64,000 bases of DNA from Saprospiraceae bacterium (GTDB taxonomy: Bacteria > Bacteroidota > Bacteroidia > Chitinophagales > Saprospiraceae): NCBI GenBank assembly GCA_031424515.1, contig JANPHO010000681.1, positions 189-64,188 of the forward strand. The letters run 5' to 3'. Under the pieces are notes generated by a model. That model ran no database searches and was not told the origin of the DNA. It saw only the letters and a program-made list of their open reading frames with translations. Below, piece after piece: positions 1,610 through 62,992 of the stretch; position 1 is the stretch's first letter, and each line of letters opens with the position of its first letter. A program made the position numbers and the translations under genes.

Positions 1610-1716
1610 TTTTTCAATCTCAAATTCTCAAAACTGAGGTAAAAAACTTACATATACTGAGGGGTATAAAATTTGAAATCTGAAATCCTGAAATTTTTTT
1701 TTAAAAACTACATATC

Positions 1717-2811
1717 ATGAATCCGATTACACCCATTCCCAATATTTACATTCGTCAAGCTTTTCTTGTTTTAACTATTCTAATTATAGGCGGGGTTATT
1801 TTTTGGCAATTAAAAAATTTCATACCAGCCTTTCTGGGCGCATACACCTTATATATACTACTTAGGCGATGGATGGAGGCTTTGACTAAAAAATTAGGAG
1901 GAAAGTCGGCATTAGCCGCTTTTTTATTGATGATTGCTTCTTTTTTAATAGTTCTACTTCCTATCAATGGCTTAATTGGGGTTTTGACATCTCGAATCAT
2001 ACCCACTATTAAGCGTTCCAATGATATTTGGCTGCCTGTTGAACAATACATTCAGAAAATAGAGGATCAATATGGCGTACATATCCTCACTCAAGATAAT
2101 ATACGGAATATAGGAGAGTGGGGTGTGAATGAGATGCAATTGCTTTTAGGAGCTACTTTTAGTAGTATTATTACTATTGTCATTATGTATTTCATCCTTT
2201 TTTTCATGCTTACTGAGGGGGCTAATATCGAAAAATCTATTTATAAATGGTTGCCCATGCGAGAGCACAGCACCTCTTTTTTAAAAAAACACCTCAATGA
2301 TTTAGTCATATCCAACGCCATTGGTATCCCATTGGTTGCGCTCATACAAGGCATCACTGCTTTGATAGGCTATTGGGTGCTGGGAGTGCAAGACCCGTTT
2401 TTATGGTTTGTCTCTACTTGTGTGGCGGCGGTGATTCCTGTTTTAGGTTCGGCGCTGGTATATGTGCCTTTATCTATTTTACTAATTACGAGTGGCTCTA
2501 CCACATCTGGTATTATTTTACTGCTTTATGGTTTTTTAATTATAGGCTCAGTGGATAACCTTTTTAGGTTTTGGCTTCAAAAACGAATTGGCGATACGCA
2601 TCCATTGATTACTATCTTTGGAGTTATCATAGGTTTGAATCTTTTTGGTTTCATAGGTTTGATATTTGGACCCATTCTTTTATCCTTATTTTTACTCTTA
2701 CTCCAAATTTACGCAAAGGAATTTAGTCCTGAAAAGCATGATTCTGATTCTGAACATTCTTATGAGGGCCCCTCAGTAAAATCGGTCATTGAACCACCCA
2801 AAAGTGACTAA
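1717..2811 (+). CDS. AI-2E family (PerM/UPF0118-like) membrane transporter
   Basis: 364 aa polytopic membrane protein with the typical UPF0118 layout: paired N-terminal TMs, a soluble loop, then a C-terminal TM bundle with GSVDNLFRF-type and PLITIFGVIIG segments. Confidence 0.7.
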   Translation: MNPITPIPNIYIRQAFLVLTILIIGGVIFWQLKNFIPAFLGAYTLYILLRRWMEALTKKLGGKSALAAFLLMIASFLIVLLPINGLIGVLTSRIIPTIKRSNDIWLPVEQYIQKIEDQYGVHILTQDNIRNIGEWGVNEMQLLLGATFSSIITIVIMYFILFFMLTEGANIEKSIYKWLPMREHSTSFLKKHLNDLVISNAIGIPLVALIQGITALIGYWVLGVQDPFLWFVSTCVAAVIPVLGSALVYVPLSILLITSGSTTSGIILLLYGFLIIGSVDNLFRFWLQKRIGDTHPLITIFGVIIGLNLFGFIGLIFGPILLSLFLLLLQIYAKEFSPEKHDSDSEHSYEGPSVKSVIEPPKSD

Positions 2812-2932
2812 TCTCTAAAATAATAAAAGCCATTGATATAATTTCGATGGCTTTTACTATTTTTAGCTGTGGTTTTTACATTTTAATTAAAAAATTATAG
2901 ATATTCATTTTAAATAAAATCAATCATTCAGT

Positions 2933-4258
2933 ATGAAAAAAAGTCAACTATTAAAAAGAGTTACTACGCTCGTATTATTTTTTGTTACGGCATTGTCTAT
3001 CCAAGCACAAACCGATAAAAATGCTGCATTAAAGCTTAAAATGGATAAATTGGCGCAAGCCGAAGAACCTAAAGTCATTGCTTGGCGCCGTGATTTTCAT
3101 CAAAATCCAGAATTATCCAATCGTGAAGTCAGAACGAGTAAAATCGTTGCAGACCATCTCAAATCTCTTGGTTTGGAGGTACGAACAGGTATTGCTAAAA
3201 CGGGTGTCGTCGGTATTTTAAAAGGTGGAAAACCGGGACCCGTGGTGGCATTAAGAGCTGATATGGATGGCTTACCTGTTACAGAAAGAGTAGATTTGCC
3301 TTTTAAATCTAAAGCGCGGACTACTTTTAATGGTGTTGAAACTGGCGTGATGCACGCCTGCGGCCATGATACGCACACCGCTATTTTGATGGGTGCGGCT
3401 GAGGTGATGAGCCAAGTAAAAGCCGATATTCCGGGCACAGTTGTTTTCATTTTTCAACCAGCCGAGGAGGGTGCGCCCAATGGAGAAATGGGTGGCGCTT
3501 CTGAAATGATAAAAGAGGGTGTTTTGGATAATCCTAAAGTGGAAACTATTTTCGGTTTGCATATCAATTCTCAAACGCCAGTCAATACTATACGCTACCG
3601 CCCGATGGGAACAATGGCGAGTTCTGATAGATTTTCAATCACGATTAAAGGCAAGCAAACACATGGTGGCTATCCGTGGAATGGCGTTGACCCTATCGTA
3701 ACGGGCGCGCAGATTATCATGGGTTTACAAACAGTTATTAGTCGAATGACACCACTTACAGAGTCTGCGGGTGTTATTACAGTGGGCATGTTTCAGGCAG
3801 GGTTACGTGAAAACATCATTCCCGAGGAAGCCAAACTTTTGGGAACTATCCGCGCTCTTGACCCCGTGGTTCAAAAAGAAATACACGCAAATATGCGCAG
3901 AGTGGTGACCAATATCGCCGAATCCGCCGGTGCAACGGCCGAATTGACCATTGAAATAGGTAATCCTGTGACTTATAATAACCCTGAATTGACTAAAAAA
4001 ATGATTCCAACCTTGGAAGCAGTGGCGGGTGAAAAGAATATCATCGTTCAATCTCCGGTAACAGGTGCGGAAGATTTCGCTAAATTTCAAGAGAAAGTGC
4101 CCGGTTTTTTCTTTTTTTTAGGAGGTATGGCTAAAGATAAAGCGGCTATAGATGTGGCACCACACCACACACCTGATTTTTTTATTGATGAATCGGGTTT
4201 TACATTGGGCGTGCGGTCATTCTGCCATTTGATATTGGATTACGCAGCTAAAAAGTAA
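2933..4258 (+). CDS. M20D family amidohydrolase (N-acyl-amino acid/hippurate hydrolase-like), secreted
   Basis: Signal peptide, MHACGHDTHTAILMGAA metal-binding motif, FQPAEEG, and length and layout typical of M20D. Confidence 0.8.
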   Translation: MKKSQLLKRVTTLVLFFVTALSIQAQTDKNAALKLKMDKLAQAEEPKVIAWRRDFHQNPELSNREVRTSKIVADHLKSLGLEVRTGIAKTGVVGILKGGKPGPVVALRADMDGLPVTERVDLPFKSKARTTFNGVETGVMHACGHDTHTAILMGAAEVMSQVKADIPGTVVFIFQPAEEGAPNGEMGGASEMIKEGVLDNPKVETIFGLHINSQTPVNTIRYRPMGTMASSDRFSITIKGKQTHGGYPWNGVDPIVTGAQIIMGLQTVISRMTPLTESAGVITVGMFQAGLRENIIPEEAKLLGTIRALDPVVQKEIHANMRRVVTNIAESAGATAELTIEIGNPVTYNNPELTKKMIPTLEAVAGEKNIIVQSPVTGAEDFAKFQEKVPGFFFFLGGMAKDKAAIDVAPHHTPDFFIDESGFTLGVRSFCHLILDYAAKK

Positions 4259-61028: not shown

Positions 61029-61099
61029 AAAATATGGATGGTCATTTTAATGAAAAATAGGCTCTAAAGTTATTCAAAAACTGGAAATAATATCTTTTT

Positions 61100-62740
61100 T
61101 TATCTTTTTAAAAACGCCTTAATCATTTGACCCACATCCTCGGCACGGAGATAGGGTAGGGTTAGAGGTGCTGTTTGAGGTATGTATAAAATATAGGGAA
61201 CGTCGAGTAACTCACCCCTCAGTCCACCATGCCCACCCTTGTAGTTTTTAACCATAAATTCATAATTTGCGGCTAAATCATAGCCTTTTCTACTCGTTAT
61301 TAGCATGTCACCGGCTCTTTCTGTGCTCATGAGTTGATATAATCTGTGCAAGGCATCTGGATAATCAGTCATTAAACTTGCCTTAAGCCATTCATCGGCA
61401 GGATGAAAACCACTTTCAATCATACCCATCAGTATTGGGTGATTATTATAGGATAATGGGTCGTTTGCGTCACACAAATAGCGATAACCTTTAGTAGGAT
61501 GATAGATAATATCAGCCCTGTTTTGAGCATTAAAAATAGAAACGGTGGAGTCGTTTTTTAAACAAGCCACCAATTCTACGCCTTCAATGGAAGTAATAAT
61601 TTGGGGTAAATTCAGGTATTTATTTTTAGCAGGATAATGTTGCAGCAATGAGAGAGGTACTCGTTTTCGCCAGTGTTCTGCTGTAGGGACTTGAGCAGTA
61701 TCGCGCCAGTAAATATAAGCCGAGAGATTGCCATTGATAACAAAATAGCCGTTTTTATCCACAAAATCACTCAGTTTTTCATCCAAATCCTTTGAAAATA
61801 TATTGACAGAATTGCCTCTTATGAGTGAAATACCGTATTGTTCGAGCAGTGATTTAGGAATATCCAAATTCTTTGAAACGTCTGAAATGCCATGATCAGT
61901 TACAATCGCAACCATTCTTTTTTCGGACTGCCCTAAGCGGTGGATGGCTTCCATAAATTGCCCAATCAAACCATCAATGTGTTGGAGTAAAAGGTAATAT
62001 TCATCGGTTGTTCCTGAAATATGATTACTGGCATCCAAACTCGGGAAAGTGACCCATTGCACTTTCGGATTTCGATCGAGTTGTTCTATTGCTTTATCCA
62101 TCACAATAGACTCGTGCTCAAAATGATTTTTAGCAAATTTTTTACCCAACCACGGCAACTGGCGCAATTGTTTGAAACCATTCTGTTCTTGAAATTTTGA
62201 GGTTGTGTGCGCCCAGCTTGTCATTTCAGCGTGGTGGACACCTCTATTCATGTAAGTATTGATTGAAGCCGTGTAAAAAGTATCGTATAGCTCAAAAATA
62301 TTTTTGGGTAAGGGGTGAATATCCTTATTCATATTGCTATTCGACCGCCCCACATAGTTGCGCAAATTGCCTTTATCGAGCCGCCTATCAAACCACCGCA
62401 GCCCCATAATGCCGCTTTTTGAAGCATTTTCACCTGTAATAAAAGGATAGAAACCATAGCCTGTCATGGAAGGAAATGCCGCAATTCCATGTTCCACATA
62501 CGTTGATTTCTGAATTAATCGGGCTAAATTAGGCAATTTACCTTGCGCCAAAAGTTCTTTAAAAATTTGGTTGGATAAGCCATCGAGCAGTAAAACGGAA
62601 ACGGTATTGCCTACCGTTGGTGGGTGGATTGTGGTATATTTTTTTTCTATCGTTAAAAAATACACCACACCAATCAGTAAACCCACTATTACGAAGAGCA
62701 TTTTTAAAAATCGAAAAAGACATGAAGACTTTTTTTTCAT
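61100..62740 (-). CDS. Alkaline phosphatase superfamily protein (type I phosphodiesterase/nucleotide pyrophosphatase-like)
   Basis: N-terminal TM, VLLLDGLS metal-site motif, IVTDHG, GGHGG. Confidence 0.6.
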   Translation of the reverse strand: MKKKSSCLFRFLKMLFVIVGLLIGVVYFLTIEKKYTTIHPPTVGNTVSVLLLDGLSNQIFKELLAQGKLPNLARLIQKSTYVEHGIAAFPSMTGYGFYPFITGENASKSGIMGLRWFDRRLDKGNLRNYVGRSNSNMNKDIHPLPKNIFELYDTFYTASINTYMNRGVHHAEMTSWAHTTSKFQEQNGFKQLRQLPWLGKKFAKNHFEHESIVMDKAIEQLDRNPKVQWVTFPSLDASNHISGTTDEYYLLLQHIDGLIGQFMEAIHRLGQSEKRMVAIVTDHGISDVSKNLDIPKSLLEQYGISLIRGNSVNIFSKDLDEKLSDFVDKNGYFVINGNLSAYIYWRDTAQVPTAEHWRKRVPLSLLQHYPAKNKYLNLPQIITSIEGVELVACLKNDSTVSIFNAQNRADIIYHPTKGYRYLCDANDPLSYNNHPILMGMIESGFHPADEWLKASLMTDYPDALHRLYQLMSTERAGDMLITSRKGYDLAANYEFMVKNYKGGHGGLRGELLDVPYILYIPQTAPLTLPYLRAEDVGQMIKAFLKR

Positions 62741-62992
62741 GGAGGATACATTCTAAATCAAGATTTTTAAACACATAAATATACCCCTCAGTATTTGGGC
62801 GTTTTATTGTTAATTTCCATAAATATAACCTATTTTTCGATTATAATATTATGCAGTTCTTTGGCAAATCTCCTTGATACATTTTTTGAATAGTTAAAAA
62901 GGTACTGTAAATGGCCAATTTAAGTTATAGAAACGGTTGATTCGAAGTTAAAAGTACGTGTTTCGGAGGAGGGTTATAATGACATATTTAAC

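What the first reader, a model, noticed from the sequence alone, without database searches (positions are those of the whole stretch)
1655..62793. Hyper-abundant, orientation-balanced 10-mer TACTGAGGGG: a DNA-uptake-signal-like word about once per 1.2 kb
I count 48 exact copies of the 10-mer. 23 read TACTGAGGGG on the plus strand, starting at 1655, 2211, 8367, 10865, 12350, 13345, 13477, 14500, 20136, 24742, 27021, 30308, 32229, 33339, 34379, 34708, 39187, 39891, 41113, 44418, 46642, 51195 and 55500. 25 read CCCCTCAGTA, starting at 5165, 6159, 10457, 15723, 18093, 19604, 22046, 23763, 26239, 26728, 29910, 31466, 36008, 38012, 39004, 40161, 45859, 47820, 48805, 49290, 53209, 56078, 57474, 58285 and 62784. 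Five more copies carry only the 9-mer core ACTGAGGGG (30117, 30975, 43646, 58896, 61215). One-mismatch copies are at 10331, 17724 and 57489. For unbiased sequence, the expectation for one 10-mer on both strands of 64 kb is 2 x 64000 / 4^10, about 0.12, and it is lower for a G-rich word in AT-rich DNA. 37 copies lie inside more than 25 unrelated CDSs, on either coding strand, and use all five stop-free frames: TEG x15, LRG x6, PLS x9, PSV x6, PQY x1. The word is therefore maintained at the DNA level, not the protein level. 16 copies are intergenic, several of them 2-13 nt after stop codons (36008, 38012, 44418, 47820). Flanks extend the consensus to an A/T-rich stretch, then TACTGAGGGG(G)TA(T), often giving ATAC...GTAT symmetry. 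Balanced, interleaved orientation, high density, tolerance in coding sequence and pairing into terminators are the hallmarks of the Neisseria DUS and the Pasteurellaceae USS. I am not aware of such a signal described for Bacteroidota. Alternatives are a binding site for a nucleoid, segregation or repair protein, or the footprint of a very small mobile or repair-templated element.
Basis: partly seen in the sequence, partly recalled or inferred. Interest (0 to 1): 0.88.

Follow-up and report, generated by a model that had tools for sequence, protein, structure and literature searches.

The report
Uptake-signal-like DNA word in Saprospiraceae
A 10-11 base DNA word, (A)TACTGAGGGG, occurs about once per 1.2 kb on both strands, in genes and between them, throughout one clade of uncultured Saprospiraceae (Bacteroidota) and their phages; its statistics match those of the DNA uptake sequences of Neisseria and Haemophilus, which are not known outside Proteobacteria, but its function has not been tested.

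Summary
The window holds 49 exact TACTGAGGGG and 54 ACTGAGGGG cores, against about 0.07-0.1 expected. They have unique flanks, 25+/29- orientation, five reading frames, and 30% are intergenic.

New findings:
- Spacing is more even than random.
- Helically phased A/T tracts (about 10.5 bp) flank the word from about -70 to +50, in coding and non-coding copies alike.
- The word is all-or-none by lineage: 257 copies in 302 kb of one Saprospiraceae clade, 4 in 2.2 Mb of other Saprospiraceae.
- One nested lineage uses a variant, ATACTG+G7-10, including at an orthologous site.
- Orthologous copies are kept far beyond flank divergence (71% perfect against 8% expected) and change by substitution, not insertion.
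- Several phage contigs carry the word at host-like density.

Inverted terminator pairs are rare.

Best reading (about 0.45): a USS/DUS-type self-DNA tag maintained by biased uptake and recombination. Rivals are an array of binding sites for a DNA-wrapping architectural protein, and a repair or gene-conversion-driven word. Competence genes and uptake could not be tested. No description of this word was found in the literature. It is a new variant of a known kind and of high interest.

The parts
1655..1664 (+). word copy, intergenic
2211..2220 (+). word copy in CDS 1717-2811 (AI-2E transporter-like), sense, TEG
5165..5174 (-). word copy in CDS 5046-5750 (SDR), antisense, PSV
6159..6168 (-). word copy in CDS 5844-10085 (T9SS beta-propeller protein), sense, TEG
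8367..8376 (+). word copy in CDS 5844-10085, antisense, PSV
10457..10466 (-). word copy, intergenic (divergent genes)
10865..10874 (+). word copy in CDS 10638-12593 (histidine kinase), sense, TEG
12350..12359 (+). word copy in CDS 10638-12593, sense, TEG
13345..13354 (+). word copy in CDS 12605-13567 (AmiA-like), antisense, PLS
13477..13486 (+). word copy in CDS 12605-13567, antisense, PLS
14500..14509 (+). word copy in CDS 13691-14551 (amidase_2), sense, TEG
15723..15732 (-). word copy in CDS 14643-16310 (fatty-acid CoA ligase), sense, TEG
18093..18102 (-). word copy, intergenic (divergent genes)
19604..19613 (-). word copy in CDS 19016-20566 (aldehyde dehydrogenase), antisense, PLS
20136..20145 (+). 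word copy in CDS 19016-20566, sense, LRG
22046..22055 (-). word copy in CDS 21931-23259, antisense, PQY
23763..23772 (-). word copy in CDS 23427-25289 (T9SS-tail protein), antisense, PLS
24742..24751 (+). word copy in CDS 23427-25289, sense, LRG
26239..26248 (-). word copy in CDS 25393-26859 (trehalase), sense, TEG; conserved in L333
26728..26737 (-). word copy in CDS 25393-26859, sense, TEG; conserved in L333
27021..27030 (+). word copy in CDS 26962-28233 (MFS), antisense, PLS; conserved in L333, L335
29910..29919 (-). word copy in CDS 29565-31385 (ABC exporter), sense, TEG; conserved in L332-L335, absent in L336
30117..30125 (-). 9-mer core copy (AACTGAGGGG) in CDS 29565-31385, sense, TEG; TACTGAGGGG in L332-L334
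30308..30317 (+). word copy in CDS 29565-31385, antisense, PLS
30975..30983 (+). 9-mer core copy in CDS 29565-31385, antisense, PLS; conserved in L332-L336
31466..31475 (-). word copy, intergenic
32229..32238 (+). word copy in CDS 31551-32885 (GT87-like), antisense, PSV; conserved in L332-L335
33339..33348 (+). word copy in CDS 32977-33855, sense, TEG; conserved in L332-L335
34379..34388 (+). word copy in CDS 33897-34973 (beta-lactamase family), sense, TEG; conserved in L332, L335, L336; decayed in L334
34708..34717 (+). word copy in CDS 33897-34973, sense, LRG
36008..36017 (-). word copy, intergenic, 2 nt after the stop of GldM_2nd paralog 35421-36005
38012..38021 (-). word copy, intergenic, 2 nt after the stop of CDS 37038-38009 (flank paralogous to that of 36008)
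39004..39013 (-). word copy in lysA 38132-39373, antisense, PSV; PNI in word-less L012 ortholog with no gap; one-off in L332
39187..39196 (+). word copy in lysA, sense, TEG; SEG in the L012 ortholog with no gap
39891..39900 (+). word copy in CDS 39410-40003 (histidine phosphatase), sense, LRG
40161..40170 (-). word copy in CDS 40065-41465 (histidine kinase), sense, TEG
41114..41123 (+). word copy in CDS 40065-41465, antisense, PLS
43646..43654 (+). 9-mer core copy, intergenic
44418..44427 (+). word copy, intergenic, 6 nt after the stop of CDS 43714-44412
45859..45868 (-). word copy in valS 44531-47185, antisense, PSV, in an indel-prone variable segment
46642..46651 (+). word copy in valS, sense, TEG; perfect in L001, L006, L009; one-off in L003, L004, L005
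47820..47829 (-). word copy, intergenic, 12 nt after the stop of CDS 47277-47807
48805..48814 (-). word copy, intergenic (convergent genes)
49290..49299 (-). word copy in CDS 48926-51001 (histidine kinase), sense, LRG
51196..51205 (+). word copy, intergenic (divergent genes)
53209..53218 (-). word copy, intergenic
55500..55509 (+). word copy in CDS 55153-56025 (aldose epimerase), antisense, PLS
56078..56087 (-). word copy, intergenic (divergent genes)
57474..57483 (-). word copy, intergenic; left arm of the only inverted pair in the window
57489..57498 (+). one-mismatch copy TACTCAGGGG; right arm of the inverted pair. The hairpin (-20.2 kcal/mol on the - strand) plus a U-run, between convergent genes, is terminator-like
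58285..58294 (-). word copy, intergenic (divergent genes)
58896..58904 (-). 9-mer core copy in CDS 58363-58992, antisense, PSV
61215..61223 (-). 9-mer core copy in CDS 61100-62740 (phosphodiesterase family), sense, LRG
62784..62793 (-). word copy, intergenic (divergent genes)
17724..17733 (+). one-mismatch copy TACTGAGGGA
41693..43580 (+). accessory module (ORF6N domain protein, small ORFs, RelE-type toxin) inside one of the longest word-free gaps (41124-43645)

Best explanation
The word (A)TACTGAGGGG(G), together with its helically phased A/T-rich flanks, is a species-group 'self' tag of the same kind as the Pasteurellaceae USS and the Neisseriaceae DUS.

Proposed mechanism, all inferred. A DNA-binding component of a DNA-uptake or transformation apparatus in this Saprospiraceae clade prefers DNA that carries the word. 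The bendable, phased flanks help the stiff duplex to be kinked or looped at that point. Fragments that carry the word are taken up and recombined more often than fragments that lack it. New copies created by point mutation therefore spread, and old copies are restored (molecular drive, with or without selection). They settle where they do least harm: between genes and in tolerant protein segments.

Shown here: the statistical anatomy, the clade distribution, the variant, the substitution origin and the conservation.

For: Density and orientation.
- There is one copy per 1.18 kb in the window and 0.85 per kb over 302 kb of the clade, on both strands (25+/29-), with no runs.
- Redfield et al. 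2006 (PMC1626085, read) give about 1 per kb and no orientation bias for both USS and DUS.

Spacing.
- Spacing is more regular than random. The CV is 0.62 against 0.97 (P about 5e-5). The largest gap is 2.9 kb against 5.4 kb expected (P about 3e-4).
- PMC1626085 reports the same for USS and DUS.

Flanks.
- A/T-rich tracts lie one helical turn apart, at -2, -12, -23, -33, -44... and +16, +25, +36, +46.
- The 10.5-bp power is 0.24 against a control maximum of 0.027 in 1000 trials.
- The phase is the same in intergenic, sense and antisense copies.
- The result was replicated in independent loci.
- USS have a core plus two AT-rich segments about one turn apart, proposed to aid kinking (PMC1626085).

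Not insertions.
- The lysA copies align without gaps to a word-less ortholog (PSV/PNI, TEG/SEG).
- The valS copies sit in variable segments and differ from orthologs by single substitutions.
- 33 of the 34 non-perfect orthologous states are substitutions.

Maintenance.
- The orthologous core is perfect in 66 of 93 comparisons whose flanks are 76% identical, against 8% expected.

Lineage distribution.
- The word is all-or-none by lineage: 257 copies in 302 kb against 4 in 2.22 Mb.
- The boundary is sharp at about 70% identity of ValS or the ABC exporter.
- One nested lineage (L008) has only ATACTG+G7-10, including at a site orthologous to a standard copy. This resembles DUS dialects and the two USS types.

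Other points.
- Copies are enriched about 2-fold in non-coding DNA.
- Inverted pairs occasionally form terminator hairpins.
- An accessory module lies in a word-free gap.
- Natural competence with a preference for own DNA exists in Bacteroidota (Riemerella columbina, PMC7965970).
Against: - No competence or type IV pilus gene was seen in the window or among the genes listed with Pfam hits in eight clade loci. This is only a small sample of each genome, so it is uninformative rather than negative.
- Natural transformation is unknown in Saprospiraceae (one search found nothing).
- At least four distinct tailed-phage contigs carry the word inside terminase, tape-measure, baseplate and head genes, at about 0.76 per kb. 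In Neisseria, DUS density drops sharply in genomic islands. USS do accumulate in co-evolved Pasteurellaceae prophages (PMC7371117). The phage result therefore fits only if these phages are long-term temperate residents, and no integrase was seen in the held segments.
- The phased flanks span about 130 bp, much more than the roughly 30 bp of a USS. That would suit a DNA-wrapping protein at least as well.
- Inverted pairs in terminators are rare (3 of about 330 copies), whereas about half of DUS/USS are reported in predicted terminators (bioRxiv 10.1101/2025.10.24.684340).
- Perfect copies outnumber one-off copies very strongly (54:4 in the window).
Confidence: 0.45

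Rival explanations
1. The word is an array of high-affinity sites for a sequence-specific architectural or topological protein. 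It would anchor a DNA-bending or DNA-wrapping protein (a nucleoid-associated protein, or a strong site for gyrase or another topoisomerase) that wraps or loops about 130 bp. The sites would be selected at regular intervals of about 1.2 kb to organise the chromosome, and phages replicating in these cells would exploit the same factor.
For: - Phased A/T tracts extend about 6 turns upstream and 4 downstream, a footprint of about 130 bp, with a roughly 3-bp phase offset across the word. They occur in coding and non-coding copies alike.
- The genome itself has a strong 10.7-bp A/T periodicity, typical of DNA adapted to curvature or supercoiling.
- Spacing is regular.
- Orthologous copies are strongly conserved.
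- The word is present at host-like density in phage structural genes.
- From my own knowledge, not checked here: gyrase wraps about 130-140 bp and its genomic motif has periodic flanks.
Against: - Known binding sites of nucleoid proteins and topoisomerases are degenerate. None is an invariant 10-mer at 1 per kb inside genes with very few one-off variants.
- Under site-by-site selection, a switch of the whole site set to a variant word in one lineage (L008) is hard to achieve. Under a drive it is easy.
- The all-or-none clade distribution would require a recently invented essential organiser.
- No candidate protein was identified.
Confidence: 0.2
2. The word is driven by repair or gene conversion and has no cellular function of its own, in the manner proposed for the cyanobacterial HIP1 repeat. 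A sequence-specific mismatch-correcting or nicking activity would convert near-matches in heteroduplex DNA toward the word. The word would then spread in any DNA that replicates and recombines in these cells, phages included.
For: - Phage contigs carry the word at host-like density, but with weaker flank phasing, as expected for younger copies.
- The perfect to one-off ratio is very high.
- The change in L008 is lineage-wide and concerted.
- The distribution is all-or-none.
- Word-bearing phage contigs encode DNA methyltransferases. HIP1 has been linked to methyltransferases (PMC4390886, title and abstract seen).
Against: - No repair enzyme with 10-11 bp specificity is known.
- A purely mutational process does not predict phased A/T flanks over 130 bp in identical phase in all contexts, nor the regular spacing.
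- The word is not palindromic, unlike HIP1 and typical methyltransferase/Vsr sites.
Confidence: 0.15
3. The word is a polar recombination or segregation signal such as Chi (RecBCD/AddAB) or KOPS (FtsK). It would be read on one strand relative to the direction of replication.
For: - It is a short, G-rich, over-represented word found in core genes.
- A Chi-like 'self' mark could in principle be copied by phages.
Against: - Orientation is 25+/29- with no runs, across 64 kb whose GC skew is positive in 12 of 16 bins, so no replichore switch is evident.
- O/E is about 500, far above what I recall for Chi or KOPS (a few-fold; from memory).
- Phased duplex flanks make no sense for a signal read on single-stranded or translocated DNA.
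Confidence: 0.03
4. The copies are footprints or copies of a very small mobile element (MITE/REP-like), or an assembly or sequencing artefact.
For: - Copy number is high.
- Some copies lie just after stop codons.
Against: - Flanks are unique, with no base-specific conservation beyond about 12 nt.
- 70% of copies lie inside intact ORFs of housekeeping genes, and they align to orthologs without gaps.
- Genuine MITEs, REPs and CRISPR arrays in related loci look quite different, with long shared flanks.
- The word recurs in assemblies from NCBI, ENA, JGI and Logan.
Confidence: 0.01

Closest known systems
Pasteurellaceae uptake signal sequence (USS: AAGTGCGGT or ACAAGCGGT core plus two AT-rich segments)
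   Same: - Non-palindromic 9-11-mer at about one per kb.
- No orientation bias.
- Spacing more regular than random.
- Present in genes in several frames and enriched between genes.
- Arises by substitution, not insertion.
- A/T-rich flanking tracts one helical turn apart on one side of the core.
- Subclade-specific variants.
- Genetically stable at orthologous sites.
(PMC1626085.)
   Different: - Different sequence and a different phylum (Bacteroidota, Saprospiraceae).
- Phased tracts extend about 6 turns on one side and about 4 on the other (about 130 bp) instead of two segments.
- Terminator pairs are rare.
- No competence, uptake preference or receptor has been shown.
- Phage contigs carry it at host-like density.
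Neisseriaceae DNA uptake sequence (DUS, GCCGTCTGAA and its dialects; receptor ComP)
   Same: - A 10-12-mer at about one per kb, on both strands.
- Lineage-specific dialects that differ by one or two bases.
- Occasional inverted pairs acting as terminators.
- Low density in some acquired DNA.
(PMC3630211 and PMC7371117.)
   Different: - DUS have no flanking motifs (PMC1626085). Here the flanks are strongly structured.
- About half of DUS are reported to lie in predicted terminators. Here about 1% are in inverted pairs.
- A type IV pilin receptor is known for DUS and none is known here.
Cyanobacterial HIP1 (GCGATCGC), a hyper-abundant word of unknown function
   Same: - A very abundant short word inside and outside genes.
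- Clade-specific.
- Maintained over time.
- Function unproven.
(PMC4390886.)
   Different: HIP1 is a palindromic 8-mer linked to cognate methyltransferases. This word is non-palindromic, longer, and embedded in phased A/T tracts.
Chi and KOPS polar motifs
   Same: Short G-rich over-represented words in core DNA.
   Different: Those are strongly strand-skewed with replication and only modestly over-represented (from memory). This word is orientation-balanced with O/E of about 500.
REP/BIME and other MITE-like dispersed repeats
   Same: - Dispersed, high copy number.
- Some copies lie after stop codons.
- From my own knowledge: REPs bind gyrase and IHF, which is relevant to the architectural rival.
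   Different: REPs and MITEs are longer palindromic units confined to intergenic DNA, with shared flanks. Examples were seen in L038 and L125. This word is 10-11 nt, mostly intragenic, and has unique flanks.

Membership tests
DNA uptake sequences (USS/DUS) | Hyper-abundant specific 9-12-mer, about one per kb genome-wide | tested here: met
   - 54 cores in 64 kb.
- 257 copies in 302 kb over 21 sequences from many genomic neighbourhoods.
- O/E of about 520.

DNA uptake sequences (USS/DUS) | Both orientations equally, with no replichore or transcription polarity | tested here: met
   - 25+/29-, and the runs test is not significant.
- Sense to antisense in CDS is 21:17 in the window and 41:37 in the clade.
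- GC skew is positive in 12 of 16 bins across the window.
- Complete replichores were not available.

DNA uptake sequences (USS/DUS) | Distribution more regular than random | tested here: met
   - CV of gaps is 0.62 against 0.97 (P about 5e-5).
- The largest gap is 2888 against 5369 expected (P about 3e-4).

DNA uptake sequences (USS/DUS) | Copies arise by point substitution in pre-existing sequence, not by insertion of an element | tested here: met
   - Gap-free alignment of lysA and ABC-exporter copies to orthologs.
- One-off states at orthologous valS sites.
- Some valS copies lie in indel-prone segments.

DNA uptake sequences (USS/DUS) | Restricted to a lineage, with variant words (dialects or types) in sublineages | tested here: met
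   - Present at 70% or more ValS or ABC-exporter identity, and absent below about 68%.
- The L008 variant ATACTG+G7-10 accounts for 5 of 5 copies, one at an orthologous site.
- The variant rests on a single 4.9-kb contig.

DNA uptake sequences (USS/DUS) | AT-rich flanking segments in helical phase (USS only) | tested here: met
   Phased A/T tracts with a 10.5-bp period, 0 of 1000 controls reaching the observed power. They are far more extended than in USS.
DNA uptake sequences (USS/DUS) | Frequent inverted pairs forming transcription terminators (typical, not strictly defining) | tested here: not met
   Only 3 pairs among about 330 copies: window 57474/57489, L081 173/201 and L185 3802/3819. 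Those three do fold as strong hairpins followed by U-runs.
DNA uptake sequences (USS/DUS) | Depleted in recently acquired DNA and mobile elements | tested here: inconclusive
   - The ORF6N/RelE module lies in a word-free gap.
- Phage contigs carry about 0.76 copies per kb.
- The lifestyle and residence time of the phages are unknown.
DNA uptake sequences (USS/DUS) | Host encodes a DNA-uptake and transformation machinery (ComEC, DprA, an outer-membrane uptake system, a sequence-specific receptor) | not testable with these tools
   - None was found in the window or in the clade loci read.
- tblastn with the E. coli HofB/C/M/Q, PpdD, YcaI and Smf proteins against all held loci found nothing.
- The source genome could not be retrieved.
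DNA uptake sequences (USS/DUS) | Competent cells preferentially take up DNA that carries the word | not testable with these tools
   This needs an experiment. All genomes found with the word are metagenome assemblies or MAGs.
HIP1-type iterated palindromes | Palindromic word that contains the site of a cognate methyltransferase | tested here: not met
   TACTGAGGGG is not a palindrome. The partial ATAC...GTAT symmetry occurs in only 15 of 54 copies.
Chi / KOPS polar motifs | Strong orientation skew with the direction of replication | tested here: not met
   25+/29-, interleaved, in a window whose GC skew is positive in 12 of 16 bins.
MITE / REP dispersed repeats | Copies share a longer unit and are inserted, mostly between genes | tested here: not met
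   Flanks are unique, 70% of copies are intragenic, and orthologous alignments are gap-free.

The most novel reading that the evidence does not exclude
The word is not an uptake signal. It is the sequence anchor of a regularly spaced nucleoprotein unit that wraps about 130 bp: a sequence-programmed, chromatin-like positioning code. It would be written into genes and spacers roughly every 1.2 kb, read by a clade-specific protein whose specificity has drifted in one sublineage, and copied by the phages that replicate in these cells.
Probability: 0.15. Interest if true: 0.92.

Novelty: new variant of a known kind. Interest (0 to 1): 0.85.

Why it matters
According to the papers read here (PMC1626085; bioRxiv 10.1101/2025.10.24.684340), sequence-specific DNA uptake tags are known from only two proteobacterial families. 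Those two families have shaped most thinking about why bacteria discriminate self from foreign DNA during transformation.

A third, independent case in Bacteroidota would have its own word, a dialect, much longer phased flanks and carriage by phages. It would allow three tests:
- whether uptake specificity evolves convergently;
- whether molecular drive alone explains such words;
- what the receptor is in a phylum whose outer-membrane DNA uptake route is unknown.

If the word is not an uptake signal, it is a new kind of genome-wide architectural or drive-maintained code that constrains protein sequences in hundreds of genes.

There are also practical uses. The word is a sharp marker for binning and for assigning phages to hosts in this clade. 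It would be the first thing to put on DNA when trying to transform these uncultured bacteria.

Tried and rejected
- Retrieving the source genome. Exact look-ups of two window proteins found nothing. Genome-wide counts, replichore mapping and a competence-gene inventory were therefore impossible.
- Metagenome scan with ValS. It gave only one further clade member (L081).
- Other hyper-abundant words in 149 other Saprospiraceae loci. Every candidate turned out to be a tandem repeat, a MITE-like unit or a CRISPR-like array, not a short dispersed word.
- tblastn with E. coli HofB, HofC, HofM, HofQ, PpdD, YcaI (ComEC) and Smf (DprA) against all held loci. No hit, which is uninformative given the small sample.
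- Scan of viral contigs for the L008 variant. No convincing variant-bearing phage.
- Search for an integrase or lysogeny module in the held phage segments. None was seen, and the segments are incomplete.
- Rfam and tRNA scans of the window. Nothing.
- Literature search for the word itself. Only primers and eukaryotic sequences.
- Literature search for uptake-sequence-like words outside the two known families, or for competence in Saprospiraceae. Nothing.
- Whether the phased flanks merely echo the genome's own 10.7-bp periodicity, or amphipathic-helix coding. Anchored controls reach an amplitude of only about 0.012 against 0.07-0.08, and intergenic, sense and antisense copies share one phase. 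Rejected.

Full report
1. THE OBSERVATION

The window contains 49 exact TACTGAGGGG (23 on +, 26 on -). 100 dinucleotide-preserving shuffles give a mean of 0.07 and never more than 1. It missed 2769(-) and gave two starts one base too low (41114, 51196).

With the five copies that keep only ACTGAGGGG there are 54 cores, 25+ and 29-. Under an order-3 Markov model trained on the window itself, which is conservative, the 10-mer has O/E of about 520. The word and its sub-words head every list from k=7 to k=12. No other word comes close.

Perfect copies greatly outnumber near-misses.

The 30 bases on either side of each copy are unrelated in sequence, so there is no longer repeated unit. The extended consensus is A/T-rich, then (A)TACTGAGGGG(G)(TA). 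A precedes the word in 34 of 49 copies. The G-run has 4-8 G. TA follows the run in 23 of 54 copies.

2. CONTEXT IN THE WINDOW

The window is ordinary chromosome. It holds valS, pgi, lysA, a fatty-acid CoA ligase, trehalase, an MsbA-like exporter, histidine kinases, T9SS-tail proteins and GldM-domain paralogs. No RNA family and no tRNA was found.

38 cores lie in 24 ORFs, on the sense strand (21) or the antisense strand (17), in all five stop-free frames: TEG 15, LRG 6, PLS 9, PSV 7, PQY 1. The sixth frame would read TGA. 16 cores are intergenic, which is 30% of copies against 14.6% non-coding DNA. The intergenic copies sit in divergent (7), tandem (7) and convergent (2) spacers, so they are not mainly at gene ends.

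The window has one inverted pair, 57474/57489, and it is imperfect. It folds to -20.2 kcal/mol and is followed by a U-run, between convergent genes.

GC skew is positive in 12 of the 16 4-kb bins, and its cumulative sum rises from 0.05 to 0.59. The orientation of copies shows no runs. This rules against a Chi- or KOPS-type polar signal.

3. NEW ANATOMY

(a) Spacing. Gaps between cores have a CV of 0.62, against 0.97 for random placement (P about 5e-5). The largest gap is 2.9 kb, against 5.4 kb expected (P about 3e-4). One of the longest gaps (41124-43645) holds an ORF6N/RelE accessory module.

(b) Flanks. I pooled 112-115 copies with unrelated flanks from the window and its relatives. A/T content oscillates with a period of about 10.5 bp. 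Peaks lie at -2, -12, -23, -33, -44, -55 and -66, and at +16, +25, +36 and +46. Troughs fall between them. The amplitude decays with distance, out to about -75 and +60.
- The upstream 10.5-bp power is 0.24, against a maximum of 0.027 in 1000 random-position controls. The downstream power is 0.058 against 0.022.
- The window alone and the relatives alone give the same result.
- A later, independent set of loci also does.
- Intergenic, sense and antisense copies show the same phase and amplitude, 0.07-0.08 against a null 99th percentile of 0.03. The feature therefore belongs to the DNA, not to the encoded proteins.
- The tracts are A-runs or T-runs interchangeably. They are a structural feature (bendability or curvature), not a base-specific one.
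- The genome as a whole has a 10.7-bp A/T periodicity. Anchoring on other A/T-to-G/C boundaries or on partial words gives amplitudes of only about 0.01. The word is therefore specifically phase-locked to unusually strong tracts.

4. WHOSE GENOME, AND WHO ELSE HAS THE WORD

ValS relatives in a species-representative genome collection are all Saprospiraceae, Lewinellaceae or Chitinophagales MAGs. The nearest (81-89% by tblastn; up to 93% over the full alignment) are Saprospiraceae MAGs with GFS_, GL and OTE isolate names.

The word occurs at 0.4-1.2 per kb in every locus whose ValS is at least 72% identical to the window's, and in none of those at 68% or less. I repeated this with the ABC exporter as the marker, and with DNA fetched from NCBI, ENA, JGI and Logan assemblies in largely different gene neighbourhoods. 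Loci at 95% down to 70% identity carry 0.64-1.16 copies per kb. Two loci at 66% carry none.

In total there are 257 copies in 302 kb of the clade, against 4 copies in 2.22 Mb of other Saprospiraceae.

Frequent 9-mers in other loci proved to be tandem repeats, MITE-like units or CRISPR-like arrays with long shared flanks. That contrast underlines how different the word is.

5. A VARIANT WORD

Locus L008 (ValS 70-71%) has no standard copy. It has five copies of ATACTG followed by 7-10 G in 4.9 kb, with the same upstream A/T tract. In a neighbour-joining tree of ValS, L008 groups with L007 and L038, which carry the standard word, inside the word-bearing clade (single gene, no bootstrap).

At one valS position L007 and L038 read AATACTGAGGGGG, and L008 reads GATACTGGGGGGGGGG in the same codons. 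The site set of that lineage therefore appears to have changed in concert. This resembles the DUS dialects of Neisseriaceae and the two USS types of Pasteurellaceae. The evidence rests on one short contig.

6. ORIGIN AND MAINTENANCE

In lysA both copies align without gaps to the word-less ortholog of L012. PSV aligns to PNI and TEG to SEG.

In valS the copies lie in variable, indel-prone linker segments. Where the clade reads GKNTEGAD, sister lineages read GRRGATKD. At one site the relatives carry one-off versions: ATACAGAGGGG, ATACTGAGGGA and ATATTGAGGGG.

Across the syntenic region 24-42 kb I compared the window with five relatives.

| Identity of the +/-75-nt flanks | Core perfect | Expected at the flank rate |
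|---|---|---|
| 60-80% (mean 75.7%) | 66 of 93 (71%) | 8% |
| 80-90% | 85% | 20% |
| 90% or more | 97% | 60% |

The comparisons are not phylogenetically independent, but the effect is large. Of the 34 non-perfect states, 33 are substitutions and one involves a gap.

The word is therefore old, arises and decays by point mutation, and is actively maintained.

7. PHAGES

Scans of IMG/VR for 14- and 16-mers that contain the word gave mostly single chance hits. About eight contigs, however, carry many copies.

PHROG matches show that at least four of them are tailed phages:
- terminase large subunit, virion protein and a ParB-methyltransferase (L243);
- tape measure (L256);
- baseplate hub, tail sheath, tape measure, terminase and major head protein (L223, L185);
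- baseplate wedge (L221).

The copies lie inside these genes, have unique flanks and include one inverted-pair terminator. Density is 76 copies in 99.5 kb. This is biased upward by the way the loci were found, but it still holds in the 14-kb loci. The flank phasing is present with the same phase but is weaker, with an amplitude of 0.032 against a null maximum of 0.026. No integrase was seen in the held parts.

That these phages infect the clade is an inference from the word and from their G+C content.

8. WHAT IT MOST LIKELY IS

Every statistical property that Redfield et al. list as common to USS and DUS is met. These are about one copy per kb, no orientation bias, regular spacing, and origin by substitution rather than insertion (PMC1626085). 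So are the USS-specific A/T segments one helical turn apart, and the existence of lineage-specific variants.

Natural competence with a preference for own DNA exists in Bacteroidota, but no uptake sequence was identified in that study (Riemerella columbina, PMC7965970). A 2025 survey still treats uptake-enhancing sequences as a feature of Neisseriaceae and Pasteurellaceae.

I therefore take a USS/DUS-type tag maintained by biased uptake plus recombination as the best single explanation, at about 0.45.

Shown: the anatomy, the distribution, the variant and the conservation. Inferred: the uptake machine, the bias, and the role of the flanks in kinking or looping DNA.

9. WHAT ARGUES OTHERWISE

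- The phased flanks cover about 130 bp. That is more than a USS, and it is the size of DNA wrapped by large DNA-binding assemblies.
- Phages carry the word at host-like density. DUS density falls in neisserial islands, although USS do accumulate in co-evolved Pasteurellaceae prophages (PMC7371117).
- Terminator pairs are rare.
- No competence gene could be examined.

Two rivals remain serious. The first is an array of anchor sites for a sequence-specific DNA-wrapping architectural or topological protein (0.2). The second is a repair or gene-conversion-driven word of the HIP1 kind (0.15). About 0.15 is left for a function that I have not thought of. Polar signals (0.03) and mobile elements or artefacts (0.01) are effectively excluded.

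10. NOVELTY AND VERDICT

The word does not appear in the searchable literature except as chance matches in primers and eukaryotic sequences. No uptake-sequence-like word is reported for Bacteroidota.

Whatever reads it, this is a robust, clade-defining, genome-wide DNA code that shapes protein sequences in a large share of genes. It works like a USS. Membership in that family cannot be claimed until uptake preference and the machinery are shown.

I rate it a new variant of a known kind, with interest 0.85.

Noticed in passing
window, whole length (word regions masked): The genome has a clear periodicity of about 10.7 bp in A/T content. Autocorrelation peaks at lags 11, 22, 33, 43 and 54, independent of the word.
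   Followed up: partly
window 41693-43580: An ORF6N-domain protein, small ORFs and a RelE-type toxin form a likely accessory module. It lies inside one of the longest word-free gaps.
   Followed up: partly
window 35421-38009: Three tandem genes, two with a GldM_2nd-domain hit. The first and third each end 2 nt before a copy of the word, and the downstream flanks of those two copies are paralogous. Those two copies were therefore duplicated together with the genes.
   Followed up: partly
L038 413-22602: This word-bearing Saprospiraceae MAG also has about 25 copies of a G+C-rich palindromic element, GCGCGAGCGAAGCGAGCGC. Many form inverted pairs about 80 bp apart. It is a REP/MITE-like family distinct from the word.
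   Followed up: no
L125 348-16804; L158 9366-9787; L127 18735-20188: In other Saprospiraceae contigs: MITE-like units of about 150 bp with TTATTTCCGRCACGTTCC ends (L125), and regularly spaced repeat arrays that look like CRISPR or tandem repeats (L158, L127).
   Followed up: no
L030 19571-19961; L049 15796-15930; L055 120-239; L032 17536-17656: Several non-clade Saprospiraceae loci have short tandem arrays of 7-mers or 11-mers within about 10 kb of valS (AGTGAAA, CAACTGA, AAGGAAC, an 11-mer). Their meaning is unknown.
   Followed up: no
L243 10225-11628; L215 2451-3434: Word-bearing phage contigs encode a ParB-like/DNA methyltransferase fusion and a DNA methyltransferase. This could matter if the word or part of it is methylated.
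   Followed up: no
L008 26-4573: All five variant copies (ATACTG+G7-10) are on one strand, and they carry homopolymer G-runs of up to 10, inside valS as well (Gly-Gly-Gly). Such runs are prone to slippage.
   Followed up: partly
L333 6983-7759 against window about 28240-28660: The 95%-identical relative has an HTH_3 gene and an unknown gene between the MFS transporter and trehalase genes. I did not see these genes in the window. This is a small indel of accessory genes between close relatives.
   Followed up: no
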